Of a DNA stretch of 64,000 bases, positions 1,821 through 46,541 are shown in pieces. The notes beneath the pieces are model-generated. The model was given only the letters and a program-made list of their open reading frames with translations. It made no database searches and was not told the DNA's origin. This stretch comes from an uncultured Candidatus Saccharibacteria bacterium. Its GTDB lineage: Bacteria > Patescibacteriota > Minisyncoccia > Phycocordibacterales > UBA9973. The position numbers were made by a program, and so were the translations under genes. Location of the stretch: NCBI GenBank assembly GCA_964571085.1, contig CAZMZT010000002.1:2784-66783 (forward strand), given 5' to 3'. Every line of letters begins with the position of its first letter. The stretch's first letter is position 1.

Positions 1821-1894
1821 TGCCGATTCGTCTAATGGTAGGACACATCCCTCTGGAGGATGGTATTGGGGTTCGAGTCCCTGATCGGCAGCCA
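1821..1894 (+). tRNA. tRNA-Gln (anticodon CUG), 74 nt with encoded CCA
   Basis: Cloverleaf folded by hand: acceptor TGCCGAT/ATCGGCA (7 bp); D-stem GTCT/GGAC; anticodon stem CATCC/GGATG with loop CTCTGGA (U33, CUG at positions 34-36); T-arm TGGGG-TTCGAGT-CCCTG; discriminator G73 plus CCA. The U1:A72 pair and G73 are known tRNA-Gln identity elements. Confidence 0.7.
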
Positions 1895-1906
1895 ACTTGA
1901 GCTAGC
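1895..1906. repeat. 12-bp att-like core ACTTGAGCTAGC immediately 3' of the tRNA. It is repeated exactly at 17039..17050 and is embedded in the 14-bp palindrome TTGAGCTAGCTCAA
   Basis: There is an exact 12-mer match between 1895..1906 and 17039..17050. The flanking 8 nt are also similar (GGCAGCCA vs GCCAGCAA). Confidence 0.55.
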
Positions 1907-2043
1907 TCAAAGATAGCTAGTAAAAGATAACTATACTGTAAATTGCATACCTGCTGAGAGCAGTATTCAGAACAAAAAGCACTTCCGATACGGAGGTGTT
2001 TTTTGTTGTTTTATATTACAACAAAGTATGCTATAATCTTTTT

Positions 2044-2250
2044 ATGAAAGATGATGCCAAAAAGTTGGGAGAAAATCTCAAAAAACTTAGGATCAAAAAA
2101 GATATTAGCCAAATAGAACTCGCCAGAATATTAGGCGTTGATCGATCTTTTGTGAGCAATATCGAAAACGGAAAGAATAATCCGACTCTTTCAACCATTA
2201 CTAGCTTAGCCAAGGCGTTAGGTGTTTCAACTAACGAACTTTTAAAATAA
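2044..2250 (+). CDS. XRE-family HTH regulator positioned like a restriction-modification controller (C) protein
   Basis: 69 aa: ...ISQIELARILGVDRSFVSNIENGKNNPTLSTITSLAKALGV.... Its stop is 1 nt before the start of the helicase/nuclease gene. Confidence 0.65.
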   Translation: MKDDAKKLGENLKKLRIKKDISQIELARILGVDRSFVSNIENGKNNPTLSTITSLAKALGVSTNELLK

Positions 2251-2251
2251 T

Positions 2252-5200
2252 ATGTCGTCATCAATAACAAACACCGGTGATAATACGCTTTCGTCAAACT
2301 TAAAGAGCATTTTGCCTAATTGTGACAAGGTAGATGCTTTGGTTGGATATTTTTACTTTTCTGGTTTTCGAGATTTACATCATGAGCTAAAAGACAAGCA
2401 GATCAGAATTTTAGTAGGAATGGATATCGATAAGAAAATACTTGATAGAGTTTCCACTCTTAAGGATTTAAATTTGGATTCATATACAACTGACACAAAG
2501 ACATCTTCTCGATCTATTGCAAAAGATGACTATATAGAAAACTTTTCAAGAATTTTCAACGATACTGATTTTTTCGATAATGATGAATCACAGCAAGCTT
2601 TTGAGATTTTTTTAGACAAAATTAAGGATGGAAGTTTGCAAATCAAAAAGACTGCACAAGCAAATCACTCAAAGTTCTATATTTTGCATAATAAACCTGA
2701 ATTCTCAACAAATGGAATCACACCAGGAATTGTTATTGAGGGTTCAAGTAATCTAACTTTTTCAGGATTAAAAGGACAAGGAGAACACAACCGTATTTTA
2801 ATGGAAAAACATTATTACGAGGATGATGTTAAACGTTTTGAATCTGTATGGGCTGATCCAGATAACATAGTTATTACTGATCTTGATTCAGCAGAGACAT
2901 TCATAAAAGAAGTAAAAGAAAAGATTTGGCTGTATGCTTTACCAAACCCACTCTTGATGTACTACAAAGTGCTCAATGAATATTTTGCTGTAACTGAAAT
3001 CGAAAACATGAAAACCCCAAAGCATATCACTGGGGGTAAATTTTCTGATCTTAAATACCAAAAGGATGCAATTAATTTAGGGATAGATCGTATTAAGAAA
3101 TTTGGCGGTGTGATTATTGCCGACGTGGTGGGTCTAGGAAAAAGTATTATTGCTTCTGCAATTGCTCACAACCTGGGCTATAAGACTATCATTATTGCAC
3201 CCCCTCACCTTGAAAGTCAGTGGAAAGATTACACAGCAGAGTTTGATTTTAAGGGTCACATCTATTCAACTGGAAAAATTGAAGAAGCATTACAACGACA
3301 CGGTAATGATGAAAGTAAGCTTTTGATAATTCTTGATGAAGCACACAAGCACCGAAATGAGGATACTGATAACTATAAGGTTTTACACAGACTTTGTGCT
3401 GGTAACTATGTAATGGCATTGTCTGCCACTCCTTTCAATAATGATCCAAAAGATATTTACGCACTAATTAAATTATTTAGTACCCCAGGACAATCAACTA
3501 TTAGAACAGTTGAAAATCTAAGTATGTCTTTCCATATGCTTTTCAAGCGATATAAAGCAGTTCGAAGAGATCTACGAAAGAACACAAAAGATGAGGGTGA
3601 TAATTCTGAAATTAAAATCGAACTACATTCAATCGCAGATGAATTGAGAAAAATGATTGAACCTTTGATTATTCGAAGATCTCGTCTTGATCTTGAAGAA
3701 ATAGAAGAATATAAGGATGACTTAAAGGCTCAAGGTGTTGCTTTTGCAAAAGTGAAAGATCCACAGCTTTTGGAATATGATCTTGGTGACATGTTTGATA
3801 TTTACGTTAAGACTCTTGAAAAAATTGCTCCAGAAGATAGAAGCACTAGTTTTATTGGTGCTAGATATAAACCAGCTTCATATATAAATCAAGGATCAAA
3901 ATTCCTTGAAAAACTTATTGAACAAGACGACGAAGACGGTATGTCTGCCGAAGAAAAACTTCAAAGAATTACACAAGCTCAAAGCAACCTTGCTCGATTC
4001 ATGAGAAGACTTCTTGTTCGTCGTTTTGAAAGTTCTGTTGGTGCTTTTAAATTATCATTAAGAAATATGATCACTTCTTCTGAAGCGATGCTTGATTGGT
4101 ATGAGAATCGACAGGAAGTTCCAATATTTAAAAAAGGTGTCTTGCCTGATTCTGAATATTTAAGTGAACTAGATGAAAAAGAATTAGAAGATACATTAAA
4201 TAAACTTGAAGATAAGGGTCTTATTAGAATTCCACTAAGCGAATTACAACCACAATTTGGTGACCACTTGAAACACGATATTGCTCTCCTCAAAGAGATT
4301 GATTCTGAATGGTCTGATAAAAATAGTGATCCAAAGTTTGAATTCTTTAAACAAAAGATTTCTCAATCATTAGCAGAAAATCCAAACAGAAAAATTGTCG
4401 TGTTTACAGAATTTTCTGATACTGCAAACTATGTATTCCAAAAACTACAAAAAGACGGCTTTGATCGTGTATTTAAGTATAGTTCAGAAGATGCTTCAGA
4501 TGAAAATAAGAGAATAATTAGATCAAACTTTGATGCAGGTCTTGAAGAATCAAAACAATCAAATGACTTCGATATTATTATTGCTACAGATGCAATTTCT
4601 GAAGGGTTCAACTTACACCGAGCAGGAGCAATCATCAACTATGATATTCCATACAACCCAACTCGTGTAATTCAACGTGTAGGACGTATTAACCGTATCA
4701 ACAGAAAAGTCTTTGACGAATTGTATATTTACAACTTTTTCCCAACACTTACTGGTGAATTAGAAACAAGAACAAAGGCAATCTCAACTTTGAAAATGGA
4801 TCTTATCCATACTCTTTTAGGTGAAGATACAAAGACTCTTACATCAGAAGAAGATTTGAAAAACTATTTTGCAAAACAGTACAAGGAAGAAAATAGTAAA
4901 AATGAAAGTCTATCCTGGGACGCACCATATCGAAATGCTTGGCTCAAGATTAAAGATGACAAGAAAATAATGGAGCAAATATCTCGAATTCCACACCGTT
5001 CAAGAATTGCTCGAAAAACAAAAGATATCAGTGGCGTAGTCGCTTTTGCAAAGAAAAGTGGAAACTATGTATTTGCTTTTGGAAAGACACCTGAAACTGT
5101 CGAAATCGTATCTCCTCAAGTAGCTCTTCCTTTGTTTAATCAAGTAATTGACTCAGAAGAATCACTACAAACAACAGTAAACTTTGATCCTATTTATAGA

Positions 5201-5545
5201 ATGGCAAAGGAACATATATTCAAAGACAATACAAAGGCCTCTGTTGATGGTGGTCGAAAACAAGATGCACTTAATCGAGTTAAGTTGCTTGGTGAATTAT
5301 ATCCTCAAGCAAAAGATCTTTGTTTGGACATAATAAGAGCAATAAAAGATCTTGACGCTCTTCCAAATGGTGTGCTTAAGGAGATTGTAGAACTTCGTAT
5401 TGATAAAACTAATCCAGAAAAAGCATATCTTGAACTCAAAGAACTTATTCCAAGCAAGTATATTGAAAGTATCTTTGAAACAGCAGATCGAGCTAATGAT
5501 GACGGTAAACTCATTGTTCTGTCTGAAGAATTAATCGCACTATGA
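2252..5545 (+). CDS. PLD-family nuclease domain fused to an SNF2/SF2 helicase (DEAH-box ATPase); the restriction/translocase-like subunit of a two-gene RM-like module
   Basis: The N-terminus has HSKFYILHN...GSSNLTFSG, a PLD-like HxK...GSxN motif. The helicase motifs are: I, VGLGKSIIAS; II, ILDEAHKHRN; III, LSATPFNN; VI, QRVGRINRI. The ORF is 1097 aa and shares a 4-nt overlap (ATGA) with the downstream methyltransferase. Confidence 0.75.
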   Translation: MSSSITNTGDNTLSSNLKSILPNCDKVDALVGYFYFSGFRDLHHELKDKQIRILVGMDIDKKILDRVSTLKDLNLDSYTTDTKTSSRSIAKDDYIENFSRIFNDTDFFDNDESQQAFEIFLDKIKDGSLQIKKTAQANHSKFYILHNKPEFSTNGITPGIVIEGSSNLTFSGLKGQGEHNRILMEKHYYEDDVKRFESVWADPDNIVITDLDSAETFIKEVKEKIWLYALPNPLLMYYKVLNEYFAVTEIENMKTPKHITGGKFSDLKYQKDAINLGIDRIKKFGGVIIADVVGLGKSIIASAIAHNLGYKTIIIAPPHLESQWKDYTAEFDFKGHIYSTGKIEEALQRHGNDESKLLIILDEAHKHRNEDTDNYKVLHRLCAGNYVMALSATPFNNDPKDIYALIKLFSTPGQSTIRTVENLSMSFHMLFKRYKAVRRDLRKNTKDEGDNSEIKIELHSIADELRKMIEPLIIRRSRLDLEEIEEYKDDLKAQGVAFAKVKDPQLLEYDLGDMFDIYVKTLEKIAPEDRSTSFIGARYKPASYINQGSKFLEKLIEQDDEDGMSAEEKLQRITQAQSNLARFMRRLLVRRFESSVGAFKLSLRNMITSSEAMLDWYENRQEVPIFKKGVLPDSEYLSELDEKELEDTLNKLEDKGLIRIPLSELQPQFGDHLKHDIALLKEIDSEWSDKNSDPKFEFFKQKISQSLAENPNRKIVVFTEFSDTANYVFQKLQKDGFDRVFKYSSEDASDENKRIIRSNFDAGLEESKQSNDFDIIIATDAISEGFNLHRAGAIINYDIPYNPTRVIQRVGRINRINRKVFDELYIYNFFPTLTGELETRTKAISTLKMDLIHTLLGEDTKTLTSEEDLKNYFAKQYKEENSKNESLSWDAPYRNAWLKIKDDKKIMEQISRIPHRSRIARKTKDISGVVAFAKKSGNYVFAFGKTPETVEIVSPQVALPLFNQVIDSEESLQTTVNFDPIYRMAKEHIFKDNTKASVDGGRKQDALNRVKLLGELYPQAKDLCLDIIRAIKDLDALPNGVLKEIVELRIDKTNPEKAYLELKELIPSKYIESIFETADRANDDGKLIVLSEELIAL

Positions 5546-8500
5546 AATTAAACGAAAAATACAATCCAGAATCTTTTGTTAATTTCATTCAAGATTTTCT
5601 TCCTGAAGATTTTAAATTAAGAGAAGAAGATATTGTAATTAACAAAGATAGATATAAAGAGATAACCAAAGCAAAGATTTTGGGTTTTTGTGAATCACTT
5701 GATTTGCATGTTTTGGAAATGGATCATACTCATGATAAAGATCCACGAGTAGCTATTGCGACGGATGCTTTTAAAATTTTGGCAGATCACTGGATCCACA
5801 GGGCTTTAGTTATTTTCAAGAGTAATGATTCTGATAATTATCGCTTTTCGTACCTCACGATAACTCTAGATCTCAATGATAAAAATAAAGTTATTAAAAA
5901 ATACTCTAATGCACGACGGTACTCTTTTTATCTAGGAAGTAGTGCAAAAGTAAGAACTCCAGAACAGCAACTTATTAAGAAAGGAAAGATTAAAGATGTA
6001 GATGACTTACTCAACCGTTTCTCCGTTGAGGTTGTAAACAAGCAATTTTATCTAGAAGTTGCAAAATTCTTTGATGAGCTTGTTTCTATAGAAGATCAAA
6101 ATCTTATTCTTCCTGGAGTGTCTGAGACAGATATAAATACTCGCAAGAGCTTTGCTGTTCGCCTTATTGGACGAGCAATGTTTTGTTGGTTCTTAAAGCA
6201 AAAGAAGTCAGATAACGGTCAGCTTGTTCCCGATGAAATCTTATCTTCAAAAGTTGTGTCAGATAATTATTATCATAATGTACTGGAACCTCTGTTCTTT
6301 GGAGTTTTGAATACTAGTATTGATGCTCGTGATATACGAACTGAACTTTTTGATAAAGTACCATACCTAAACGGTGGTCTCTTTAATCCTCAAACTGATG
6401 ATTATTATGAACTCGACCGTGGTACATTTGCTTCGAAATATATCAATACCCTCAAAATAAGTGATAAATGGTTTAAAGAATTTTTTGAGCTTCTTGAAAC
6501 ATACAATTTTACTATTGATGAAAACACGGTATTTGATCAAGAGCTTTCAGTTGATCCTGAAATGCTTGGTCGTATTTTTGAAAATCTCTTGGCTGAAATT
6601 AACCCAGAAACTGGAAGCAGTGAACGAAAGCGAACAGGAAGTTTTTATACTCCAAGACAGATTGTTGAATATATGGTTGATCAGTCTTTGATTGAATACT
6701 TTAAAACCAAAACAGATATTGAAGACAAGAAACTAAACGCCCTGGTTAGTTACGATTTAACTGACGATACTGAGTATCCTCTAGAACAAAAAGAAAAAGA
6801 GCAAATTATTAACGCGATAGAATCACTTAAAATCCTTGATCCTGCTTGTGGGTCAGGAGCATATCCTATCGGAGCACTTCAAAAGATTGTTTATATTCTG
6901 CAACAAGTAGATCCAGAGTGTACTCTTTGGCTTGATAAGAAACTTCAAGGTGTTCCTGATTTATACAAACAAAAGATAATCAACGAAGTAAAGCAAAACC
7001 CATTTGATTACACACGAAAACTGGATGTAATAAAAAACTCTATCTTTGGAGTAGATATTCAACCAATTGCGGTAGATGTATCTCGTCTGCGATGCTTTTT
7101 GACCTTGGTTGTTGAATCTGAAATTGATGATAATAAACCAAATCGTGGGATAGAACCACTTCCAAACTTGGACTTTAAATTCGTATGTGCGAATAGTTTA
7201 GTTCCTGCCCCAGAACAAGAAAAAACACAAGATCATTCATTATTTGGTGATGAGTTTCAAGATAAACTTTCGGTTGCTGTTGATGCCTACTTTTCTTCTT
7301 CAGGTGAAAATAAAAGAAATGCGAATAATGAAATCCATAAACTGATTGATAATAAAGTTAGGGAAAAATTAGCTCATCTAACTGGTCTTGTTTCTTATAA
7401 TGGAGATAAAAAAATGGAAGATATTCTAGCAAAAATGAATAAGAAGCAAATTGATAAGCATTCTAGAATATTAATCTTGTGGTCTAGTTATAAAAATATC
7501 TTCACAAATAAACCAGTGGATTTCTTTGACCCTCATTATTTTTTTCCTAGTGTTAAAAATGGATTCGATATTATTATTGCTAATCCACCATACGTAAGTA
7601 TTAATCAAATATCAAAAAACAAAGATTCCTTTACCTCTTACCTAAAAAGTGGAGATGCATCTTTGGGTAATTATTTAGGCATAAATTTACACAGCACTCC
7701 GATGTCTAGAAAAAAATATCCGCCGAAGCCTAATTTATACGCATTCTTTTTTGTAATGGCAAAAAAATTATGCACTAGTAATGGGATAATATCTTTCATT
7801 GTCCCGAAAGGGGTTCTAACAGCTAAAGATTTAGATACACTCAGATATTTATTCTTATCTAAAATGCAGCTTTTCTTACTTACTTCATTCAAAGAGGGTG
7901 TATTTAATCATAGTGAGACATCTAGTGGAAAGATTGCCACAAGTAGTTTGTTGGTTTTTTTAAAAAATACGACTATCGATAGCAACCATAAAATCAATAT
8001 ATCGAATGTAACAATTGGAGAATTGGGCAACGATGTATCTTCAAAAATTGACTCCAATATCCTTTTAGAGAATATAGATAATTGGAATTTAATATCAATG
8101 TCTGCTGAACAGTTATCTATACTAGCAAAATATAATAAAGGTAAGGATTTAAGTATTTATTATAATCATGAATCGGAAAGAGAGTCGATTCATAAATTTT
8201 ATTTTGATGTAGGTTTTACCCTAGATAAAAATAAAATAATCAAGGAGGAACCAATAAATCATTCTGAATACTATAGACTTTTTGAGTTTAAGGGAATTAA
8301 AACATACCGTCTTGAAACTAAAGATTATTATCCAAAAAATAAAAATTATATTGCACTTACTAAAAATAGCCAAGGTTATATAGTTCTAGATCAACAATAT
8401 AAAATTATTTGGAGTGTTAAGAACCCATCTGCTTTTGGTTTTACGGATGAAGAAGTTATATTTCCAATGGGTAAAGCCGCTATAATTGCTAGTAATGATA

Positions 8501-8814
8501 AAAATGAAATATTATTTTTACTTTCTATTTTAAATTCTAAAATTACTTGGTTTATTTTAACCATATTATTAAAACACGAGGGCGAAAAAGATATGCTAGT
8601 TCCAATTTCGTCAATAAAAAATTATATTAGAATACCAGATATTAAAAAAGAGCAAAAAAATGAAATTATAAAAATTTCTAATGAAATTACACAGTATAAA
8701 ATAAAAAATGATGAAAAGATGTCTGTAGAGCTTGAGAAAAAGATAGACGATTTGATATTAGATTATTTTGGTTATACTGAAGCTGAAAAAGAAATTATAA
8801 GAAGCTCTAACTAA
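5542..8814 (+). CDS. Eco57I-like gamma-class N6-adenine DNA methyltransferase with a long AT-rich C-terminal tail (target-recognition-like; ~1090 aa)
   Basis: The motifs are: X, TGSFYTPRQIVEYMVD; I, ILDPACGSGAYPIGAL; IV, FDIIIANPPYV. The X-I-IV order indicates gamma class. The ~450-aa C-terminal tail sits in very AT-rich DNA. Confidence 0.8.
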   Translation: MKLNEKYNPESFVNFIQDFLPEDFKLREEDIVINKDRYKEITKAKILGFCESLDLHVLEMDHTHDKDPRVAIATDAFKILADHWIHRALVIFKSNDSDNYRFSYLTITLDLNDKNKVIKKYSNARRYSFYLGSSAKVRTPEQQLIKKGKIKDVDDLLNRFSVEVVNKQFYLEVAKFFDELVSIEDQNLILPGVSETDINTRKSFAVRLIGRAMFCWFLKQKKSDNGQLVPDEILSSKVVSDNYYHNVLEPLFFGVLNTSIDARDIRTELFDKVPYLNGGLFNPQTDDYYELDRGTFASKYINTLKISDKWFKEFFELLETYNFTIDENTVFDQELSVDPEMLGRIFENLLAEINPETGSSERKRTGSFYTPRQIVEYMVDQSLIEYFKTKTDIEDKKLNALVSYDLTDDTEYPLEQKEKEQIINAIESLKILDPACGSGAYPIGALQKIVYILQQVDPECTLWLDKKLQGVPDLYKQKIINEVKQNPFDYTRKLDVIKNSIFGVDIQPIAVDVSRLRCFLTLVVESEIDDNKPNRGIEPLPNLDFKFVCANSLVPAPEQEKTQDHSLFGDEFQDKLSVAVDAYFSSSGENKRNANNEIHKLIDNKVREKLAHLTGLVSYNGDKKMEDILAKMNKKQIDKHSRILILWSSYKNIFTNKPVDFFDPHYFFPSVKNGFDIIIANPPYVSINQISKNKDSFTSYLKSGDASLGNYLGINLHSTPMSRKKYPPKPNLYAFFFVMAKKLCTSNGIISFIVPKGVLTAKDLDTLRYLFLSKMQLFLLTSFKEGVFNHSETSSGKIATSSLLVFLKNTTIDSNHKINISNVTIGELGNDVSSKIDSNILLENIDNWNLISMSAEQLSILAKYNKGKDLSIYYNHESERESIHKFYFDVGFTLDKNKIIKEEPINHSEYYRLFEFKGIKTYRLETKDYYPKNKNYIALTKNSQGYIVLDQQYKIIWSVKNPSAFGFTDEEVIFPMGKAAIIASNDKNEILFLLSILNSKITWFILTILLKHEGEKDMLVPISSIKNYIRIPDIKKEQKNEIIKISNEITQYKIKNDEKMSVELEKKIDDLILDYFGYTEAEKEIIRSSN

Positions 8815-10126: not shown

Positions 10127-10198
10127 ATTATATTAATGACGCAACTTGAGCGTTTTGCTAAGTCTATGCAGAACTAGTGAAATATTGCATACTCGCGA

Positions 10199-11695: not shown

Positions 11696-11697
11696 AA

Positions 11698-14175: not shown

Positions 14176-14195
14176 GTAGTTATGATAGCAAATAC

Positions 14196-14224
14196 TTGCT
14201 TTTTTGTATAGAGTAATTTATACT
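14196..14224 (+). promoter_or_regulatory. Sigma70-like promoter for the LexA-like repressor gene (TTGCTT, 17-nt spacer, TATACT)
   Basis: The hexamers and spacing are read from the sequence. The ATG at 14234 follows 10 nt after the -10 element. Confidence 0.4.
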
Positions 14225-14233
14225 ATTTATACC

Positions 14234-14851: not shown

Positions 14852-14855
14852 ATTT

Positions 14856-16210: not shown

Positions 16211-16214
16211 TCTT

Positions 16215-16757: not shown

Positions 16758-16988
16758 ATAAAATTACACTAATCTGTAACTTTTATACTCAAACCTGTGT
16801 CACTTTTGTCACTTTTTATGAACAAGGAAGATAAAAGAAATCCTAAAAATTGGACTAAAGAAGAGACCGATAGAGTGGTCGCAGTATTTCAATGGCTATT
16901 GGAGCAAGATAAAAAGCAGAATCCAGATCGGTATAAAAAACCTACTGCTCAAAGACCGTCGAAATGATAGAATAAACTTATTAAAAAT

Positions 16989-17050
16989 GTCCTTACGGGG
17001 CTTGACCCACCACGGTTCTGGCTCAAGGACGCCAGCAAACTTGAGCTAGC
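16989..17050. repeat. Element-end repeat R1 (~50-bp family repeat plus the 12-bp att-like core ACTTGAGCTAGC at 17039..17050)
   Basis: GTCCTTACGGGGCTTGACCCACCACGGTTCTGGCTCAAGGACGCCAGCAAACTTGAGCTAGC differs from R2 at about 9 of 48 positions. The last 12 nt are identical to the tRNA 3' flank. Confidence 0.6.
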
Positions 17051-17129
17051 ACGAGATGCTTATAAATTGAGCTTTCGAATTAGCAAAAGATCTATACAGT
17101 TATTGAAGAAGCCGTAGGCTAATCCAGAC

Positions 17130-17165
17130 AAAAAACACTTTCAAAAATGAAAGTGTTTTTTGTTG
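17130..17165. terminator. Rho-independent, bidirectional-type terminator (AACACTTTCAAAAATGAAAGTGTT followed by T-run)
   Basis: A perfect 9-bp stem is flanked by an A-run and a T-run. Confidence 0.55.
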
Positions 17166-17208
17166 TTGACTTCTAAAACCATATACCCTATACTATAGGG
17201 TATATGGT
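17166..17208 (+). promoter_or_regulatory. Promoter (TTGACT, 17-nt spacer, TATACT) overlapped by a perfect 31-bp palindrome ACCATATACCCTATACTATAGGGTATATGGT; CsoR-type operator
   Basis: The palindrome spans 17178..17208. It contains ATACCC...GGGTAT half-sites like known CsoR operators, and it covers the -10 element and the csoR start codon. Confidence 0.6.
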
Positions 17209-17491
17209 AAAACAAACACACAATCATGTTCACAAGCACGGTGAGCCAAACACAAAGGCTCGCAAAGTTATTAATATGGCAATAGGAAGTGTTGCTAAGA
17301 TTCCTGAGATGGTCGATGATGGACGATACTGCCCTGAAATTATTCAGCAAATTGATAGTGTCGTAGGTCTTTTACATAGTGCACGAAAAGAATTACTAAA
17401 GGGTCACTTAGAGTCTTGCCTTGCTGAAAGATTAAAGACCGACAAGGAGGGTTCAATCAAAGAATTGCTAAAAATCTACAACATGCAGTAG
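17204..17491 (+). CDS. csoR: CsoR/RcnR-family metal-sensing transcriptional repressor
   Basis: 95 aa with a His-rich N-terminus. ...RYCPEIIQQIDSVVGLLHSARKELLKGHLESC carries the C-H-C metal-ligand signature of the family. Confidence 0.7.
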   Translation: MVKQTHNHVHKHGEPNTKARKVINMAIGSVAKIPEMVDDGRYCPEIIQQIDSVVGLLHSARKELLKGHLESCLAERLKTDKEGSIKELLKIYNMQ

Positions 17492-17529
17492 ATTTTTAGT
17501 GTTTTATTATTAAATTTATATAAAAAATT

Positions 17530-18093
17530 ATGTCTAAAATTTCAACAACATTAGCAATTTCTCTTATGGTAGTAACAAGTGTTTTGGGGTGGGTTGCTGG
17601 GTATGCCAGTACTGCTGACTATAAAATGAGTATGTACGACAAAACAACTATGGATTTTGGTCGTCCAGATCGAACACTCGACCTTCGTTATATTAATGCA
17701 ATGATTGCTCATCACAGAGGAGCTATGCTCTTGGCTACACAAGCAGGTACACAGACACAGCGACAAGAGATGAAAGATCTCTCTGCAATGATTCTTCGCG
17801 ATGAACCAAAAGCAATTGATGAGCTATACACATGGAAAAAAGACTGGTATGGAGATACAAAACAAGTAAAGGACCCAATCGTTTCTAATCTTGGAACGTA
17901 TGATGAGAAATTTGATCTTCGCTTTCTTAATGCACTTATCGCACACCATGAAGCTGGATTGCTCATGACAAAAGAAATAAAGACCAAGTCTAGTAGAACT
18001 GAAATTTTAAATAATGCGGATGCAGTTGATACATTCCTTACAACAACACTTAAACTCTTCAAAGACTGGAGAACACAGTGGTATAACATCTAA
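17530..18093 (+). CDS. DUF305 family secreted/lipoprotein (metal-homeostasis associated)
   Basis: There is an N-terminal signal/TM segment. The duplicated motifs LRYINAMIAHHRGAMLLA and LRFLNALIAHHEAGLLM are the paired HH motifs of DUF305. Confidence 0.6.
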   Translation: MSKISTTLAISLMVVTSVLGWVAGYASTADYKMSMYDKTTMDFGRPDRTLDLRYINAMIAHHRGAMLLATQAGTQTQRQEMKDLSAMILRDEPKAIDELYTWKKDWYGDTKQVKDPIVSNLGTYDEKFDLRFLNALIAHHEAGLLMTKEIKTKSSRTEILNNADAVDTFLTTTLKLFKDWRTQWYNI

Positions 18094-18107
18094 TATAAAA
18101 TCCCTAT

Positions 18108-20378
18108 ATGACAAATAAAACACTAAAAATTAAAGGGATGCATTGTGCAAGTTGTGCAACTATTATCACCAACAAGGTTTCTAAACTTGGAGGTGTAGAT
18201 GCTGTTAGCGTTAATTTTGCGACGGAAAAAGCAAATGTGTCTTTTGATGATGCTGTTGTTTCTATCCATCAAATGAATAATGAGGTTGAAAAATTAGGGT
18301 ACACATTTATTGATGAAACGAGTTCACATCCTATGGAAGACCACAGTATGCATACTGGAATCAACGAATCAAAAGACGAAAAAATGAAAGAGCTTCTTGT
18401 TATGAAGACAAAAACTCAGTTTGTACTACCGATTGCTCTTCTTGTCTTTATTTTGATGATGTGGGATATAGGAGCAAAATTATTTACTTCAGTTCCAAAT
18501 CTTCCGTTACCGATGTCCATTTTCAACACCATCTCTATGGTACTTGCTAGTGTTGTATTGTTTTGGATTGGACAACCCTTTTTACAAGGAGTAGTAAAAT
18601 TTGCTAAATATCGTGTTGCTAATATGGATACTCTCATTGGTATTGGAACATTTGTTGCATACCTTTACAGTATCTGTATCACGTTATTCCCTTTAATGAG
18701 GGTAGCTTTAAAACTTCCTGAGACCACTTACTTTGATGTCACTATCGTAGTAATTGGTTTCGTGATGTTAGGTAAATACCTCGAAGCACGATCAAAACTT
18801 CGTACAGGTGAAGCGATAGAAAAACTTCTCGGACTCCAAGCAAAAACTGCATTACTATGGCGTAATGGTACTGAAGTAGAAGTACCAGTCAGTGAAGTGC
18901 AGATTGGAGATATTATTATCGTAAAACCAGGATCAAAGATTCCTGTAGACGGAATTATTGTGGAAGGATATTCATCTATTGATGAGTCAATGATTACTGG
19001 TGAACCAATTCCTGTTGATAAAAAAACTGATGATTTTGTTGTTGGAGCAACAATCAATAAGCAAGGAAATTTCAAATTCAAAGCTACAAAAATTGGATCC
19101 GACACTGTGCTCGCTCAAATCATAAAGATGGTTGAGGATGCTCAAGGATCAAAAGCTCCCATACAAGCAATGGCTGACAAAATTTCTAGCGTGTTTGTGC
19201 CAATCGTACTTGGCATAGCGGTACTCACTCTACTCCTTTGGCTTACCGTAGGTACATCAGCTCTCGGTTTCTCAACAGCACTTTCTTATGGAATTCTTTC
19301 TTTTGTAGGAGTTCTTGTTATCGCATGTCCATGTGCATTAGGACTCGCCACACCTACAGCTATTATTGTCGGGGTAGGAAAAGGAGCAGAACACGGAATC
19401 CTCATTCGCAATGCTGAAACCCTCGAAAAACTTAGCCATGTAGATACTGTCGTTCTTGATAAGACAGGAACGATCACAAAAGGAAAACCTGAAGTAACCG
19501 ATATTATTTCTCTTGATACTGCATGGACAGAAACAGATATACTACGAGCAAGTGCTAGTGTAGAAAAGCTTTCTGAACACCCTCTCGCAGATGCTGTTGT
19601 CGTTAAGGCAACCGAACAAAACATACTTCTTGAAACGGTTACAAATTTCCAAGCACTCGAAGGTGTCGGAGTAGAAGGAATGATTGGTAATAAGCACATA
19701 GTAATCCATAAGCCATCGAAAAGTGGCACTGTTACAGATAATATTAAAGAACTACAAGAACAAGGTAAGACAGTTGTTATTATAGAAGTTGGTAAAAAAC
19801 AGATCGGTCTTATCGCACTATCAGATACTCTAAAAGAAGAGTCAAAAGAAGCTGTAGCAAAACTTCATACAAGAAATATTAAAGTAATAATGCTCACAGG
19901 AGATAACTATTTGGCAGCAAGCTATATAGCGAAACTTGCGGGCATTGATGCTGTTATTGCAGAAGTAATACCTCAAGAAAAAGCTGGAAAGATAAAAGAA
20001 TTACAAGATGGTGGTGCGATTGTTGCAATGGTTGGCGATGGTATTAATGATGCCCCTGCTCTTGTACAGGCCGATGTCGGTATTGCTATGGGTACAGGTA
20101 CAGATGTGGCAATAGAATCAGCAGGTATCACGCTCCTCGGAGGAGACGTTTCAAAGATTGCACAAGCGATCAAGTTATCAAAAATGACAATGCGAGGTAT
20201 AAAGCAAAATCTTTTCTGGGCTTTTATATTCAATGTGGTAGGCATTCCTCTTGCTGCAGGACTCTTTTACCCAGCATTTGGATGGTTGTTAAATCCAGCG
20301 TTTGCAGGACTCGCTATGGCATTCTCAAGTGTCTCTGTAGTATCGAACTCATTAAGAATTAAGGCAAAGAAATTATAA
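18108..20378 (+). CDS. copA: Copper-translocating P1B-type ATPase
   Basis: The N-terminal HMA domain is [11 protein letters not shown]. The motifs include the CPC in ...[12 protein letters not shown]..., DKTGT, and [10 protein letters not shown]. There are 8 TM helices. Confidence 0.9.
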
Positions 20379-20379
20379 T

Positions 20380-21387
20380 ATGAAAAATTACATACTACAT
20401 GTTTCTGGAACTCATTGTGCGTCATGCAAAATACTAATTGAAGATATTCTTGTTGATCAAGATATTGTCAAAGGTGTTAATGTAAATCTAAAAAATGAAA
20501 TTGTCCATATTGATACTGATAGCAATAGTAGCCCAGAGGAGATAGCGTCATTACTTACTGAAAAAATTAAATCGCACGGATACACTCTTTCTGTTGAGAA
20601 AATAATCAAAGAAAAACAATCTGATGACATTATTTGGAAAGCAATACCAATTGGTCTTGTGTTCTTGATATTATTCTTCATTCTTCAAAAATCAGGTATT
20701 TTGAATCTCGGCATTGGTGGAAAAACTACACCTGCTACAAGTTTTATTATCGGGATCGTAGCTTCAGTTTCGAGTTGTCTTGCAATCGTAGGAGGTCTTG
20801 TGTTATCACTCTCAGCAAAAATATCACAAGATAATGTGAGTGATACAAAAACTTTTGCACTTTTCCATATTGGAAGAATCGGGAGCTTCGCACTACTCGG
20901 CGGAGTACTAGGACTAGTCGGGAATGCTATCGGTATTAGTTTTACATTTACTGCAATTTTAGGAATTATTGCTTCTCTTGTTATGCTATTTCTCGGATTA
21001 AATTTAGTCGGTGTATTCGAAAAAAATAAAATTACATTACCTTCAGGAATCTTCAACTTTTTTCGCAAAATTGAACATAAAACTTTTACACCTCTGATAA
21101 TTGGTTTTGGTACATTCTTCTTACCTTGTGGTTTTACTCAATCAATGCAAGTAGTTGCACTCTCTAGTGGATCATTTATCTCTGGAATGATGATTATGCT
21201 TGCATTTGCTCTTGGGACTCTTCCTGTTCTCTTACTCTTATCATTTGGTGGAGCTTCACTTGCTCACGGGAAGCATGCACCACTATTCTTTAAGTCAGCA
21301 GGTGTCGTAGTGATCGGTCTTGGGATCTTCGCATTGCTCGCTGGTCTTGTAGGTGTCGGTATTATTAACCCTTTGTTTAATATATAA
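20380..21387 (+). CDS. HMA-domain (GTHCASCK) fused to a multi-TM permease-like domain (CcdA/TauE-like); putative copper chaperone-permease
   Basis: The N-terminal metal-binding HMA fold is followed by ~8 hydrophobic helices with a ...FFLPCGF... motif. The start is 1 nt after the copA stop. Confidence 0.4.
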   Translation: MKNYILHVSGTHCASCKILIEDILVDQDIVKGVNVNLKNEIVHIDTDSNSSPEEIASLLTEKIKSHGYTLSVEKIIKEKQSDDIIWKAIPIGLVFLILFFILQKSGILNLGIGGKTTPATSFIIGIVASVSSCLAIVGGLVLSLSAKISQDNVSDTKTFALFHIGRIGSFALLGGVLGLVGNAIGISFTFTAILGIIASLVMLFLGLNLVGVFEKNKITLPSGIFNFFRKIEHKTFTPLIIGFGTFFLPCGFTQSMQVVALSSGSFISGMMIMLAFALGTLPVLLLLSFGGASLAHGKHAPLFFKSAGVVVIGLGIFALLAGLVGVGIINPLFNI

Positions 21388-21394
21388 TTATCAT

Positions 21395-21790
21395 ATGAAT
21401 AAAACTGTCTCAATTATTATCATTAGTGCACTTCTTATAGGTATAGGAATCGTTGTTTTGGGTGGGGCATCAAAGGGTGGATCAGAAAGTGCTACAGGAG
21501 TGCAAAACAGCGAAATAAGAGACGGTGTACAGTACATAACCATAGATGCCAAAGCAGGATATTCTCCCAGGGTATCTATGGCAAAAGCAGGTATCCCTAC
21601 AAAGTTAATAGTAAAAACCAATGGTACTTACGACTGCTCTGCTTCTTTGGTTATTAAATCATTAAACTATCAAAAAATTCTTTCTCAGACAGGAGAAGAA
21701 ATTATCGATATTGGGACACCGGTAGCAGGAACTCCGTTGAGAGGGGTCTGTGGTATGGGAATGTATAACTTCCTTATTAACTTTAGTTAA
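21395..21790 (+). CDS. Small secreted cupredoxin-like protein
   Basis: It has a signal anchor and a beta-rich ~100-aa domain with C/M residues (...RGVCGMGMY...). It sits at the end of the copper operon. The fold assignment is tentative. Confidence 0.35.
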   Translation: MNKTVSIIIISALLIGIGIVVLGGASKGGSESATGVQNSEIRDGVQYITIDAKAGYSPRVSMAKAGIPTKLIVKTNGTYDCSASLVIKSLNYQKILSQTGEEIIDIGTPVAGTPLRGVCGMGMYNFLINFS

Positions 21791-22259
21791 GGTATATACA
21801 TTTTTCTTTAAGTACTATTTTACTTTTAAAACAAGTTAGTAACCCCCGCTTTTCTTCAATAGAACCATCTTTCAAAATAAATTTAGCATAGTTACGAATA
21901 TCAATATCGTTTACTTGTATTTCTTGTTTGATGCCAAGAACCGACTGTTGAAACTTCTTTATTCTCTGAACCTCTTCCTTAATCTTATCTTTCATTCCTA
22001 TCTCATTAATACTTATCTGATTGAGTAGTTTTTCAAATTGTTCTATAAGTTCAACCTCGTTGATATAGCCACATTTACAATCTTTGTCTTTGGCTTTCGT
22101 ACATCCATAGTAGATATGACGATTAACAGATCCGTCTTTAAGCTTCTTAAACTTCTCATCAGCACATATACCAGAACCACATAGACCACAAATCATCATT
22201 CTGGTAAAAGCAAATTCTTTAGGTTCTTGCGTTCTTAATACTTGGCTTAAAAAGACCAA
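21783..22259 (-). pseudogene. 5'-truncated paralog of the large serine recombinase (C-terminal ~158 aa only)
   Basis: ...LRTQEPKEFAFTRMMICGLCGSGICADEKFKKLKDGSVNRHIYYGCT... aligns with residues ~285-439 of the 8807..10126 product. The N-terminal catalytic domain is missing. Confidence 0.7.
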
Positions 22260-22610
22260 TAGTCAAGAAGACCTTGTTTATTTTATAGAAAAAATAAAAT
22301 CCGAGTTTACTAATCTTGATTTTCTTGCACGTATATTATTGGCTAACCCAAACGAGTTATTTATTAAATCTTTAGCAAATGCAATTTTGAGTACAAAATT
22401 AGAAGAAGAGGGTAAAATAACAAATTTGAAAGTTCCTGAAGTAGAGACTGTTGTTAGAAATATAAATGTAATTCATATTGATTTTTCTGGTATTGACCTT
22501 AAAGAGAGAGGTACAGATGAAGGGCCACTAGCAGTAAAGGATAATTCAGAGTTCTAGTTTGTTTAAGTGCTCAAAGACCATCAAAAAGTTAAGATAAAAT
22601 TGTTAAAGAT

Positions 22611-22660
22611 AACCTTACTGGACTTGCCCGACCACGGCTCTTGCTCAAAGACGCCAGCCA
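22611..22660. repeat. Element-end repeat R2
   Basis: AACCTTACTGGACTTGCCCGACCACGGCTCTTGCTCAAAGACGCCAGCCA is a close copy of R1 and R3. Confidence 0.6.
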
Positions 22661-22784
22661 GGAACAGGGTGAGGAATATCTAAGGCTTAATCCAGAGAAG
22701 ACATGAGAATGATAGTCCTCACATTAACCAGTGCCACTTTTATCGTATTTTATAAAATCTATTTAATAATCTATAATAGACATT

Positions 22785-23396
22785 ATGAATTTATTGGAAA
22801 ATCTATTATTTTCGCTTATTACAGGTATTATCTCAAGTATCATTGTAGTTATATATTTTGAATATCAGCAGAATAAAAAGCATAAACTCTCGCATGCACA
22901 TATTTTACATAAATTTATCAGTCAAATGTTCGGCATCCTAACAGTTATCAGGGTTTCTGCCGATTTGCCATATCCAAGAGGCAACAATCAGAATGAGATA
23001 CTAGTAAAACTAGAGGAAATATTGGGTCGAAAGAACCCAAGTGTACTTATGGGAAGAATACCTAATTTGGGTGGAGATAAACATAAGTACATTTATGAAC
23101 AGCTCCTTATGGCTCGGCAGTCATTATCGATGCTTTTTTCTGATTCAATTGCACACAAAACCATTGACGGAAAAATTTCTGCTTCTATAGCCGAGGCTCA
23201 AGTTTGGGTTGAAGCAGTCCTTTCTAACTACCAGTTATTTCCAGAAATTTTAAATAATCAGGCTGATACTTTAATGATAACGAGTTGGACTACTAGTATA
23301 TTTAATCTTACGGAAAATACCTTTGGGATACTCACTAATACATTAGCTAGAAAGGAGGTTCCAGATGAAATGTTACGTTGGGGTACTCGTGGATAG
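22785..23396 (+). CDS. Hypothetical protein with an N-terminal TM helix (sole ORF of mini-element 3)
   Basis: 203-aa ORF between repeats R2 and R3 with no recognizable motifs. Confidence 0.3.
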   Translation: MNLLENLLFSLITGIISSIIVVIYFEYQQNKKHKLSHAHILHKFISQMFGILTVIRVSADLPYPRGNNQNEILVKLEEILGRKNPSVLMGRIPNLGGDKHKYIYEQLLMARQSLSMLFSDSIAHKTIDGKISASIAEAQVWVEAVLSNYQLFPEILNNQADTLMITSWTTSIFNLTENTFGILTNTLARKEVPDEMLRWGTRG

Positions 23397-23441
23397 TATG
23401 TCTGAGAAGGTTTGAAATGGTATAATAAAAGTGTTAGTAAT

Positions 23442-23491
23442 AACCTTACTCTACTTGACCGACCACGACTCTTGCTCAAAGACACCAGCCA
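23442..23491. repeat. Element-end repeat R3
   Basis: AACCTTACTCTACTTGACCGACCACGACTCTTGCTCAAAGACACCAGCCA. Confidence 0.6.
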
Positions 23492-23555
23492 AGTCGTGCT
23501 AAATCGAGATTCGTCGAAACCCCATTGGTTGCATTGTTTATAGTATAATTAAAAA

Positions 23556-23894: not shown

Positions 23895-23900
23895 AATATA

Positions 23901-46535: not shown

Positions 46536-46541
46536 AAAATT

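What the first reader, a model, noticed from the sequence alone, without database searches (positions are those of the whole stretch)
1821..23500. Tandem array of three integrated elements at tRNA-Gln, each ending in a conserved ~50-bp repeat
Right after tRNA-Gln, the 12-mer ACTTGAGCTAGC (1895..1906) recurs exactly at 17039..17050, which is improbable by chance in 64 kb. The second copy is preceded by a ~50-bp sequence (R1, 16989..17038) that has two further close copies, R2 (22611..22660) and R3 (23442..23491). The three repeats partition the region into element 1 (~15.1 kb: RM-like module, recombinase, terminases, repressor, TIR module), element 2 (~5.6 kb: copper islet plus truncated recombinase) and element 3 (~0.8 kb: one ORF). 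The interval 1895..23491 looks AT-richer than the flanking core. This is the signature of serial site-specific integrations at one tRNA-proximal attB, with older elements degraded. R1-R3 do not show compensatory base changes, so they are more likely recombination-site arms than an ncRNA.
Basis: seen in the sequence. Interest (0 to 1): 0.6.

Follow-up and report, generated by a model that had tools for sequence, protein, structure and literature searches.

The report
Serine-recombinase islands stacked at tRNA-Gln
Three related mobile DNA elements (one intact, two decayed) sit head to tail at the end of a tRNA-Gln gene in a Patescibacteria genome; they belong to a widespread, apparently undescribed family that uses a large serine recombinase, not the usual tyrosine integrase, to insert into tRNA genes and to carry anti-phage and copper-resistance genes between species.

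Summary
tRNA-Gln(CTG) at 1821-1894 is followed by three units, each ending in a repeat R. R is about 91 nt, not about 50: 16946-17036, 22568-22658, 23399-23489. Island GC is 0.349 against 0.40-0.41 in the flanks.

Related genomes add the rest. The recombinase at 8807-10126 is a large serine recombinase. Its close relatives in Patescibacteria genomes sit on elements bounded by a tRNA gene and by R. Of 56 loci with enough flank, 45 have such a tRNA: Gln 32, Ser 7, Trp 5, Asn 1.

Unit 1 (15.1 kb) is intact. Its backbone is ParB-methylase, TerS, TerL and the recombinase. Its cargo is a restriction-modification (RM) pair and Thoeris.

Unit 2 (5.6 kb) is an internal-deletion derivative of a ~16-kb copper-resistance element. 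That element is 99.8% identical over 5.2 kb in another species.

Unit 3 (0.83 kb) is an end remnant.

All junctions share CAGC at the tRNA's last bases. The last 23 nt of R match the tRNA 3' end in register from the T-loop GGTTC. R is neither an ncRNA nor a dispersed repeat.

No empty site and no excised circle could be found. Excision and integration are therefore inferred.

The parts
1821..1894 (+). tRNA-Gln (CTG). Its 3' part serves as the chromosomal left half-site (B arm). The T-loop GGTTC lies 18 nt upstream of G73-C74.
   Evidence: ARAGORN; Rfam RF00005, 53 bits. The same position is held by tRNA-Gln in 32 of 56 related loci.
1889..1892 (+). CAGC core shared by all four junctions; the other copies are at 17033-17036, 22655-22658 and 23486-23489. 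The strand exchange is inferred to lie here, within A72-G73-C74.
   Evidence: Read directly from the sequence. Homology to L028 and L031 starts at w17032 and w17034.
1893..1920 (+). Left arm (P') of unit 1, CAACTTGAGCTAGCTCAAAGATAGCTAG. It contains the 14-bp palindrome TTGAGCTAGCTCAA (1897-1910) and supplies the last bases (CA) of the tRNA.
   Evidence: The same arm follows the tRNA in L005/L011, L009, L010, L012, L014, L016, L020, L022, L023 and L027. The profile hit starts at 1895.
1893..17036 (.). Unit 1: an intact 15.1-kb element.
   Evidence: Co-linear with L011 and L014 at 85-87% nucleotide identity. Homology ends at w17040.
1996..8814 (+). Unit 1 cargo on the tRNA side: an HTH regulator (1996-2250), an HKD/PLD + SNF2 helicase (2252-5545) and a type IIG-like restriction-methylase (5542-8814).
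   Evidence: Pfam; PADLOC HKD+Snf2/DrmD-like and REase_MTase_IIG, 1.7e-66.
8807..10126 (-). Large serine recombinase, full length (439 aa).
   Evidence: Pfam Resolvase + Recombinase + Zn_ribbon_recom. YARKS aligns with the YLRRS stretch of SPbeta SprA (reading it as the catalytic motif is my own). More than 8000 homologs; the best 120 are 78-97% identical.
10199..13369 (-). Conserved backbone: TerL (10199-11695), TerS-like (11698-12105) and ParB-domain N6/N4 DNA methylase (12092-13369).
   Evidence: PHROGs phrog_38 at 5e-78, phrog_4044 at 1e-9, phrog_498 at 1e-71. Found upstream of the recombinase in 40, 55 and 54 of 81 loci respectively.
13543..16757 (.). An unknown 210-aa gene (13543-14175, minus strand), a LexA/S24-type repressor (14204-14851) and the Thoeris genes ThsB, ThsA (macro) and ThsB (14823-16757). 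This is the cargo on the far side.
   Evidence: Pfam; PADLOC ThsB 7.5e-70, ThsA 1.3e-82, ThsB 1.1e-68.
16797..16967 (+). Small conserved end ORF (orf56), function unknown. Its last codons form the start of R.
   Evidence: tblastn finds it at 66-98% identity at the element end in 11 loci. No Pfam, PHROG or PDB match.
16946..17036 (+). R1, the right end of unit 1. It consists of the orf56 3' end, a spacer and a 23-nt P arm, GGTTCTGGCTCAAGGACGCCAGC.
17037..22658 (.). Unit 2: a 5.6-kb deletion derivative of a ~16-kb copper-resistance element. It holds the P' arm (17037-17066), CsoR (17204-17491), DUF305, CopA (18108-20378), DsbD_2-HMA and cupredoxin (21353-21790).
   Evidence: w17034-22248 is 99.8% identical to L031 and 99.3% to L028. 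Pfam.
21783..22259 (-). Truncated recombinase gene: only the C-terminal ~158 codons with the zinc ribbon remain. The deletion junction is at 22248/22249.
   Evidence: Pfam Zn_ribbon_recom only. 100% identical to L034/L035 over w21880-22248. Identity to L031 ends at 22248, which lies inside L031's full-length gene.
22568..22658 (+). R2, the right end of unit 2.
   Evidence: 91% identical to the R of L034.
22659..23489 (.). Unit 3: a 0.83-kb end remnant with one ORF (22785-23396, 203 aa) plus R3 (23399-23489). It has no recognisable P' arm and no recombinase.
   Evidence: Homologs of the ORF sit in RM/defence islands near serine recombinases; in L106 one lies at the far end of such an element at tRNA-Glu.
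23490..23522 (+). Sequence after R3, CAAGTCGTGCTAAATCGAGATTCGTCGAAA. It resembles the P' arm of more distant family members and may be the scar of a fourth, older unit.
   Evidence: The P' profile aligns from its position 1 exactly at 23492; this is weak window-wide (E 2.7). True chromosomal flanks after R in single-copy loci are not P'-like. The cupin gene at 23556 has a 75% identical homolog between the recombinase gene and tRNA-Ser in L078.

Best explanation
Window 1893-23489 is a head-to-tail array of three units of one family of Patescibacteria integrative elements. These elements insert with a large serine recombinase into the last bases of tRNA-Gln.

Anatomy. Each complete element starts, on the tRNA side, with a palindromic left arm (P'). 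It ends with R. R consists of the 3' end of a small ORF, a spacer, and a 23-nt right arm (P). The P arm resembles, in the same register, the tRNA from the T-loop GGTTC to A72-G73-C74.

Integration. Recombination between the circular element's P-core-P' site and the tRNA exchanges strands within the shared AGC or CAGC. The element's P' arm then supplies the final bases of the tRNA.

Stacking. The chromosomal half-site beyond the tRNA is not conserved between genomes. A tRNA already followed by an element may therefore still be usable as a target. New copies would then stack next to the tRNA and push older ones outward.

The three units. Unit 1 is intact: a ParB-methylase, TerS, TerL and recombinase backbone, a LexA-type repressor, and RM-like and Thoeris cargo. 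Unit 2 lost 7-8 kb, including the catalytic part of its recombinase, but keeps its copper-resistance cargo and both ends. Unit 3 is only a far-end gene plus R. Units 2 and 3 could still be moved by the unit 1 enzyme.

Shown here: the anatomy, the family, its tRNA specificity, and near-identity of units across species.

Inferred: the exact crossover, excision, the order of arrival, mobilisation in trans, and any role of the terminase genes in transfer between cells.
For: - Three R copies, and no more, lie in direct orientation after the tRNA.
- All junctions share CAGC.
- The recombinase has all three serine-integrase domains, and its YARKS stretch aligns with the YLRRS stretch of SprA.
- In L005, L007 and L009 the same backbone is bounded by tRNA-Gln on one side and R on the other, in unrelated flanks.
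- Of 56 species-representative loci with at least 9 kb of downstream flank, 45 have a co-oriented tRNA there. 32 are Gln, including 13 of the 15 loci whose recombinase is at least 84% identical.
- R ends co-vary with the target...CCAGC for Gln...CTCCGC or ...CCCGC for Ser and Trp.
- The last 23 nt of R match the tRNA-Gln 3' end at 13.1 of 23 positions in register, against 2.5-9.4 at 24 other registers.
- Nine-bp inverted repeats, TAGCTCAAG and CTTGAGCTA, flank the core at R|P' junctions, as expected for a serine-integrase attP (sequence reading).
- Unit 2 is 99.8% and 99.3% identical to intact elements in L031 and L028. Those sit at tRNA-Gln genes of different sequence, one of them the TTG isoacceptor.
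- About 10 of about 27 R ends in other genomes are followed by another P' arm, so tandem arrays are common.
- GC is 0.349 against 0.40-0.41 in the flanks.
Against: - No empty site, excised circle or alternative junction was found. Both metagenome scans and two viral-contig scans returned nothing, and the metagenome collection does not even hold the known contig L002.
- Homologs of the left-flank gene gave no syntenic relative.
- Unit 3 has no P'-like left arm, and its interior matches none of 89 loci. Its status as a separate integration rests on R2 and R3 alone.
- Serine integrases characterised so far do not normally accept a hybrid attL as a target, so stacking at the tRNA needs an assumption.
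- L031's tRNA reads TAGC, not CAGC. This conflicts with placing the crossover at the dyad centre, CA.
- No directionality factor and no replication gene was identified.
Confidence: 0.85

Rival explanations
1. A classical tRNA-targeting genomic island made by a tyrosine integrase, with R1-R3 being displaced copies of the tRNA 3' end.
For: The island sits at a tRNA 3' end and has direct repeats at unit ends. R resembles the tRNA 3' end in register at 13.1 of 23 positions.
Against: Pfam scans of the island's main ORFs found no tyrosine recombinase domain. Identity between R and the tRNA is only 4 nt, far below the 15-60 nt identity blocks typical of such islands (my own knowledge). The only recombinase, conserved across the whole family, is a serine recombinase.
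Confidence: 0.03
2. One composite island that arrived in a single event. R2 and R3 would then be internal duplications of its end, or pre-existing parts of a composite element.
For: R2 and R3 are more alike (87% over 67 nt) than either is to R1. Unit 3 has no left arm. Tandem units can in principle move together, as shown for SCC cassettes (PMC11470126).
Against: Unit-1-type and unit-2-type elements each occur alone in other genomes, bounded by tRNA-Gln and their own R. The unit 2 segment is 99.8% identical to L031, while unit 1's relatives are about 86% identical. This suggests the two units have separate histories.
Confidence: 0.08
3. R is a functional RNA or a promoter/leader element repeated upstream of + strand genes, and not a recombination arm.
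For: Each R lies 65-170 nt upstream of a + strand gene. A conserved TGnTAnnAT box, an extended -10-like motif, overlaps the orf56 stop and points outward (my reading).
Against: RNAalifold on 18 copies gives -2.4 kcal/mol and no covarying pair. There is no Rfam hit. The consensus promoter scan does not call the box. R always sits at the far end of a recombinase element, and its last bases co-vary with the target tRNA. An outward promoter could coexist with the att function.
Confidence: 0.04
4. Unit 1 is a decayed prophage. The terminase and methylase genes are dead remnants, and nothing in the region is mobile any more.
For: TerL, TerS, a ParB-methylase, a LexA-type repressor and an integrase are phage-type genes. 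No capsid, portal, tail or lysis genes are present.
Against: The same four-gene backbone, with intact ORFs and no structural genes, recurs across the 81 loci: TerL in 40, TerS in 55 and the methylase in 54, at 42-99% protein identity for TerL. That is not the pattern of random decay. IMG/VR relatives of TerL at 51% identity or more are on short contigs or show the same arrangement; in the two loci examined, no structural-gene cluster follows TerL. Near-identical copies in different species indicate recent transfer.
Confidence: 0.1

Closest known systems
SCC / SCCmec composite islands of staphylococci (CcrAB, CcrC)
   Same: Large serine recombinases insert cassettes at the 3' end of one conserved gene. 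Cassettes stack in tandem, separated by short att copies. Some cassettes lack a recombinase and are moved in trans. The cargo includes anti-phage defence and copper resistance (PMC11470126).
   Different: The SCC target is the protein gene rlmH, not a tRNA. SCC has no terminase or methylase backbone. The recombinases are not close relatives: the best solved match here is SPbeta SprA at E 1e-12. The host phylum differs.
Tycheposons of Prochlorococcus
   Same: They integrate next to tRNA genes and stack in tandem with degraded remnants. Their cargo serves defence and adaptation. Some are satellite-like, with TerS or a capsid gene (10.1101/2020.12.28.424599).
   Different: 910 of 937 use tyrosine recombinases, and units are separated by partial tRNA copies. 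Many carry primase, helicase or polymerase genes, and none was found here. The host is cyanobacterial.
Islander-type tRNA/tmRNA islands with tyrosine integrases
   Same: An intact tRNA at one end, the tRNA restored by element sequence, tandem arrays recorded (PMC4383910).
   Different: [quoted passage not shown] Here the recombinase is of the serine family, and the far-end repeat shares only a 4-nt identical core with the tRNA, plus a degenerate in-register resemblance.
Phage satellites (PICIs; PLEs of Vibrio cholerae)
   Same: About 15 kb, with an integrase, a repressor and packaging genes but no capsid or tail genes. PLEs use a large serine recombinase (PMC9638900). They carry anti-phage functions.
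   Different: No replication module or origin was found. A full TerL is present, which classical PICIs lack (my own knowledge). No helper phage is known and induction is untested.
ICE/CIME accretion in streptococci
   Same: Site-specific accretion produces arrays in which recombinase-less units, flanked by att sites, can be mobilised by a neighbour's enzyme (my own knowledge; see the IME review PMC5704250).
   Different: Those systems use tyrosine integrases and conjugation. No conjugation or relaxase genes are present here.

Membership tests
Large serine recombinase (serine integrase) elements | Resolvase catalytic domain with the catalytic serine, followed by a Recombinase domain and a zinc-ribbon domain | tested here: met
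   Pfam PF00239, PF07508 and PF13408 in order. YARKS aligns with the YLRRS stretch of SPbeta SprA, E 1e-12 over residues 25-395.
Large serine recombinase (serine integrase) elements | Short att sites with imperfect dyad symmetry around a small core, and no long identity block between attP and attB | tested here: met
   R|P' junctions read TAGCTCAAG-N12-CTTGAGCTA around CAGC. Only 4 nt are identical between the tRNA end and the R end.
Large serine recombinase (serine integrase) elements | A 2-bp staggered crossover, and recombination demonstrated with a directionality factor controlling excision | not testable with these tools
   No directionality factor was identified. orf56 and the 210-aa gene have no informative match.
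tRNA-targeting genomic island (Islander signature) | An intact tRNA gene at one end, restored by element sequence | tested here: met
   The P' arm supplies the final CA of the tRNA, or AA in unit-2-type elements.
tRNA-targeting genomic island (Islander signature) | A displaced tRNA fragment as a direct repeat at the far end | tested here: not met
   R shares only CAGC with the tRNA. The in-register resemblance of 13.1 of 23 positions is not a copy.
tRNA-targeting genomic island (Islander signature) | A tyrosine-family integrase on board | tested here: not met
   Pfam scans of the island's main ORFs found no tyrosine recombinase domain.
Tandem array / accretion of site-specific elements | Two or more units in direct orientation, each ending in an att copy | tested here: met
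   R1, R2 and R3 all lie on the + strand, and the window has only three hits.
Tandem array / accretion of site-specific elements | Each unit is also found on its own elsewhere | tested here: inconclusive
   Met for unit 1 (L011, L014) and unit 2 (L031, L028). Not met for unit 3, whose interior matches none of 89 loci.
Phage satellite (PICI/PLE-like) | Integrase, repressor and packaging gene(s) present; no virion structural or lysis genes; size about 10-20 kb | tested here: met
   Unit 1 is 15.1 kb.
Phage satellite (PICI/PLE-like) | Its own replication module (primase/helicase/initiator plus origin) | tested here: not met
   None was recognised by Pfam, PHROGs or PADLOC among unit 1 genes. The 210-aa gene remains unknown.
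Phage satellite (PICI/PLE-like) | Induction and packaging by a helper phage | not testable with these tools
   No helper phage is known. IMG/VR relatives at 51% identity or more are on short contigs or show the same arrangement; in the two loci examined, no structural-gene cluster follows TerL.
Tycheposon | An element at a tRNA-linked island with replication hallmark genes; defined in Prochlorococcus, mostly with tyrosine recombinases | tested here: not met
   No replication genes, a serine recombinase, and a Patescibacteria host. The resemblance is functional only.

The most novel reading that the evidence does not exclude
These elements may be one Patescibacteria-wide family of satellite-like, terminase-encoding islands. 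Their serine recombinases would read a feature common to all tRNAs: the T-loop GGTTC at a fixed 18-nt distance from G73-C74. Small changes in the last bases of the attP arm would then retarget them between tRNA-Gln, Ser, Trp, Asn and Glu. On this reading the elements are a main route by which defence systems and metal resistance move between species of these reduced-genome bacteria. Tandem stacking at the tRNA would serve as the place where cargo is exchanged.
Probability: 0.4. Interest if true: 0.78.

Novelty: new variant of a known kind. Interest (0 to 1): 0.62.

Why it matters
Integration into tRNA genes is textbook for tyrosine integrases. [quoted passage not shown] My searches of the held library found no description of this family.

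A serine-integrase clade with simple, short att sites that targets the conserved 3' end of tRNAs would matter in three ways:
1. It would explain how defence islands spread in Patescibacteria, a group whose mobile elements my searches of the held library found little about.
2. It would give a natural example of retargeting by co-variation between the attP arm and the target tRNA.
3. It would offer integrases whose target exists in nearly every genome, which is of interest for genetics in uncultured or hard-to-transform bacteria.

The 99.8% identity of a 5.2-kb copper-resistance segment between different species is direct evidence of recent transfer.

Tried and rejected
- Empty site. An exact scan of metagenome contigs for the predicted tRNA|flank junction gave 0 hits. 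A scan for the right flank alone also gave 0 hits, although L002 contains that sequence, so the collection lacks this organism. Nothing can be concluded from these two scans.
- Syntenic relatives through the left-flank DUF1801 gene. The homologs lie in unrelated contexts. Two of them show classical partial-tRNA-Gln repeats of a different kind.
- Excised or circular forms in IMG/VR, using the attP junction and the R core as patterns: 0 hits.
- R as a structured RNA: rejected.
- R as a dispersed repeat: rejected for this window.
- More R copies to the right of 23.5 kb that would close a fourth unit: none, although the same profile detects Ser- and Trp-type R ends in other loci.
- An outward promoter in R. 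It rests only on my reading of a TGnTAnnAT box, and the consensus scan does not call it.
- orf56 as a directionality factor. No support; its best PDB match is NuiA at E 0.2, which is not significant.
- A full phage ancestor through TerL relatives in IMG/VR. The relatives at 51% identity or more are short contigs or show the same arrangement, and in the two loci examined no structural-gene cluster follows TerL.
- The GCTCAARGA motif occurs 14 times against 1.2 expected. Only six copies lie in att regions. The rest are unexplained.

Full report
**1. The observation**

ARAGORN finds one tRNA in the window, tRNA-Gln (CTG), at 1821-1894 on the + strand. Rfam confirms it at 53 bits and reports nothing else at gathering threshold.

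The 12-mer ACTTGAGCTAGC occurs only at 1895 and 17039. It is part of an 18-of-19-nt match, CAGC(C/A)AACTTGAGCTAGC.

The three repeats are real and longer than reported. The repeat finder gives one 91-nt family at 16946-17036, 22568-22658 and 23399-23489. A profile built from 18 R copies of several genomes hits the window exactly three times, at E 1e-28 to 1e-19, and nothing else has E below 1.

Island GC is 0.349, against 0.402 on the left and 0.411 on the right.

All four junctions share only CAGC:
- tRNA: ...GGCAGC|CAACTTGAGC
- R1: ...GCCAGC|AAACTTGAGC
- R2: ...GCCAGC|CAGGAACAGG
- R3: ...ACCAGC|CAAGTCGTGC

.

**2. Gene content**

Unit 1 (1893-17036) holds, in order:
- an HTH regulator;
- an HKD/PLD-SNF2 helicase and a type IIG-like restriction-methylase;
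- a 439-aa large serine recombinase on the minus strand (Resolvase, Recombinase and Zn-ribbon domains);
- TerL (phrog_38, 5e-78), a TerS-like protein and a ParB-domain DNA methylase;
- an unknown 210-aa gene and a LexA/S24 repressor;
- Thoeris: ThsB, ThsA-macro, ThsB;
- a 56-codon ORF whose 3' end lies in R1.

Unit 2 (17037-22658) holds CsoR, DUF305, CopA, DsbD_2-HMA and cupredoxin. It also has the C-terminal 158 codons of a second recombinase gene.

Unit 3 (22659-23489) holds one 203-aa ORF with no family match.

Pfam scans of the island's main ORFs found no tyrosine recombinase domain.

To the right lie small genes and then clear core genes: ABC-F, HtrA, GlyA, ArgS, IleS, GlyRS and MetG.

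**3. Source and relatives**

The window's own proteins occur only on metagenome contigs. Two short contigs stop inside the tRNA (L001 ends at w1857) and inside R3 (L004 starts at w23454). This fits strain variation at the island edges but does not prove it.

The recombinase has thousands of homologs. The best 120 are 78-97% identical, and every one that carries a source name is from a Patescibacteria genome.

Three contexts were read in full. L005, L007 and L009 all have the backbone methylase, TerS and recombinase, with TerL between TerS and the recombinase in L005 and L007. Variable cargo lies on both sides:
- next to the recombinase: the same RM-like pair (L005), the same copper module as window unit 2 (L007), or type I RM plus Shedu (L009);
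- on the far side: Thoeris, Hachiman or DUF6119.

In each locus the element runs from a tRNA-Gln (CTG or TTG) to an R copy. The tRNA is followed by ACTTGAGCTAGCTCAAAGATAGCTA. After R's ...GACGCCAGC the sequences become unrelated. L009 has a second recombinase element directly after R.

**4. The family**

A scan of one genome per species found 354 relatives, and 80 loci were fetched.
- Of 56 loci with at least 9 kb downstream of the recombinase gene, 45 have a tRNA there in the same relative orientation: Gln 32, Ser 7, Trp 5, Asn 1.
- Among recombinases at least 84% identical to the window's, 13 of 15 are at tRNA-Gln.
- TerS, the methylase and TerL are found upstream of the recombinase in 55, 54 and 40 of 81 loci. 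Many of the other loci are cut by contig ends.
- The arm that follows the tRNA is a conserved palindrome, TTGAGCTAGCTCAA or TCGTGCTAGCACGA, sometimes with a ~10-nt insert.
- R ends can be found by profile even for distant members, and they co-vary with the target...GACGCCAGC at tRNA-Gln...GACGCTCCGC or ...GGCCCGC at tRNA-Ser and tRNA-Trp. Those tRNAs end ...CTCCGCCA and ...CCCGCCA.

**5. What R is**

Over 18 copies RNAalifold finds no structure (-2.4 kcal/mol, no covarying pair).

R is made of three parts:
- the last codons of orf56 (...AQRPSK*);
- a conserved spacer;
- a 23-nt arm, GGTTCTRGCTCAAGGACGCCAGC.

This arm matches the last 23 nt of tRNA-Gln (GGTTCGAGTCC...GCAGC) at 13.1 of 23 positions in register. 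At 24 other registers the value is 2.5-9.4. In both, GGTTC lies 18 nt before ...GC.

At R|P' junctions, 9-bp inverted repeats (TAGCTCAAG, CTTGAGCTA) flank the core with 12 nt between them. That is the form expected of a serine-integrase attP.

I conclude that R is the P arm of attP plus adjacent element sequence, and that the tRNA T-arm and acceptor end form the B arm of attB.

The dyad centre falls on CA (tRNA positions 71-72). However, L031's tRNA reads TAGC, so the exchange more likely lies in A72-G73 or G73-C74. Sequence alone cannot settle this.

**6. The three units**

*Unit 1.* It is co-linear with L011 and L014 at 85-87% nucleotide identity. Homology stops at w17036-17040, the end of R1.

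*Unit 2.* w17034-22248 is 99.8% identical to L031 and 99.3% identical to L028. In those loci the segment belongs to elements with a full recombinase gene, and L031 (about 16 kb) ends in its own R. They sit at tRNA-Gln genes whose sequences differ from the window's, and L028's is the TTG isoacceptor.

Identity ends at w22248, inside the recombinase gene. The next 313 bp match nothing. R2 is 91% identical to the R of L034, whose recombinase 3' part is 100% identical to unit 2's.

Unit 2 is therefore an internal-deletion or replacement derivative. It lost the catalytic part of its recombinase and its backbone but kept cargo and both ends. Its near-identity across species shows recent horizontal transfer.

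*Unit 3.* It has R3 but no P'-like left arm, and its interior matches none of 89 loci. Homologs of its ORF (48-58% identical) lie in RM/defence islands near serine recombinases. In L106 one lies at the far end of an element that starts with a P'-like arm after tRNA-Glu. This fits unit 3 being the far-end remnant of an older element.

The join of R2 to non-arm sequence exactly at the core could come from recombinase-mediated deletion between the R2|P3' site and a pseudo-site. That is speculation.

**7. Mechanism**

Shown:
- the anatomy;
- the enzyme class;
- the tRNA specificity of the family;
- co-variation of the R end with the target;
- independent occurrence of units 1 and 2;
- frequent tandem arrays: about 10 of about 27 R ends elsewhere are followed by another P' arm.

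Inferred:
- A circular element recombines its P-core-P' site with the tRNA's 3' end, and P' restores the last bases.
- The chromosomal half-site beyond the tRNA is not conserved between genomes. A tRNA already followed by an element may therefore remain a usable target, so the newest copy lies nearest the tRNA. The order intact, truncated, remnant fits this.
- The unit 1 enzyme could excise units singly or together, as shown experimentally for SCC cassettes (PMC11470126).
- The conserved TerS and TerL without any structural genes suggest transfer by packaging into a helper phage's capsids. No replication module, helper phage or directionality factor was found.

**8. Comparison and novelty**

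The arrangement works like SCC composite islands and like tycheposon arrays. It looks like a phage satellite.

It fails the Islander definition on two tested features: there is no tyrosine integrase and no displaced tRNA copy. It fails the tycheposon and PICI definitions on the replication module.

[quoted passage not shown] Twenty-seven of 937 tycheposon-type elements have large serine recombinases (10.1101/2020.12.28.424599). Six searches of the held library found no description of this Patescibacteria family. The library is incomplete, so prior description cannot be excluded.

**9. Limits**

No empty site or excised form was found, and the scans that could have shown one were uninformative.

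The right boundary is uncertain. The sequence after R3 aligns to the P' profile from its first position. The cupin gene at 23556 lies between the recombinase gene and tRNA-Ser in L078. Against a fourth unit, GC to the right is core-like (0.403) and no fourth R exists.

**Verdict**

The finding is real and correctly interpreted. Its wider interest lies in the family it reveals.

Noticed in passing
window 23490-24440 (and possibly further right): The sequence after R3 (CAAGTCGTGCTAAATCGAGATTCGTCGAAA) resembles the left arm of distant family members such as L078 and L089. The cupin gene at 23556 has a 75% identical homolog between the recombinase gene and tRNA-Ser in L078. A fourth, older remnant may lie here. 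Against this, GC is core-like and no fourth R was found.
   Followed up: partly
L066, L069, L070, L072, L073, L078, L080-L083, L085 (tRNA-Ser/Trp), L042 (tRNA-Asn), L106 (tRNA-Glu): Recombinases about 70% identical to the window's sit next to tRNA-Ser, Trp, Asn or Glu, not Gln, with the same type of palindromic arm after the tRNA. Their R ends match that tRNA's last bases. The clade appears to switch between tRNA targets.
   Followed up: partly
window 46506-50006: The isoleucyl-tRNA synthetase (1166 aa) carries an inserted histidine-phosphatase (CobC/phosphoglycerate-mutase-like) domain at about residues 504-667, between the two halves of the IleS match.
   Followed up: no
window 28614-29687: A 357-aa ORF contains three tandem repeats of about 102-104 codons (copies at 28827, 29139 and 29445, spaced 306-312 nt). 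Only faint precomputed Pfam hits (PhoD_N, Pur_ac_phosph_N) are on record for its identical copy in L002.
   Followed up: no
window 19140, 32109, 42082, 42190, 43296, 47888, 51389, 62330: The 9-mer GCTCAARGA occurs 14 times against 1.2 expected. Six copies are in the att regions. The other eight lie elsewhere, mostly in coding sequence, and are unexplained.
   Followed up: no
window 1332-1730 (-) and 24480-24851 (+): DUF1801 genes lie on both sides of the island. In two unrelated bacteria (L100, L105) homologs of the left-flank DUF1801 gene also sit just downstream of a tRNA-Gln.
   Followed up: partly
L100 9160-9400; L105 8753-9215: In these bacteria, which share no flanking synteny with the window, tRNA-Gln is followed within about 150-450 nt by one or two partial copies of its own 3' end (for example CGAGTCCCTGTCGGGCAGC). 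These enclose small remnants with a hairpin, AAATTTTGTGCATACAAAATTT. It is a classical tRNA-fragment signature from a different kind of element.
   Followed up: no
L001 (ends at window 1857) and L004 (starts at window 23454): Independent short-read assemblies of this organism break inside the tRNA and inside R3. No 31-mer is repeated there within the window (judged by eye from the R2/R3 alignment). This hints at strain-level variation at the island edges.
   Followed up: no
window 16962-16971, 23427-23436 and the aligned columns of alignment A1: A conserved TGnTAnnAT box (extended -10-like) overlaps the stop codon of orf56 and points outward across the att site towards the next unit's + strand genes. 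The consensus promoter scan does not call it.
   Followed up: partly
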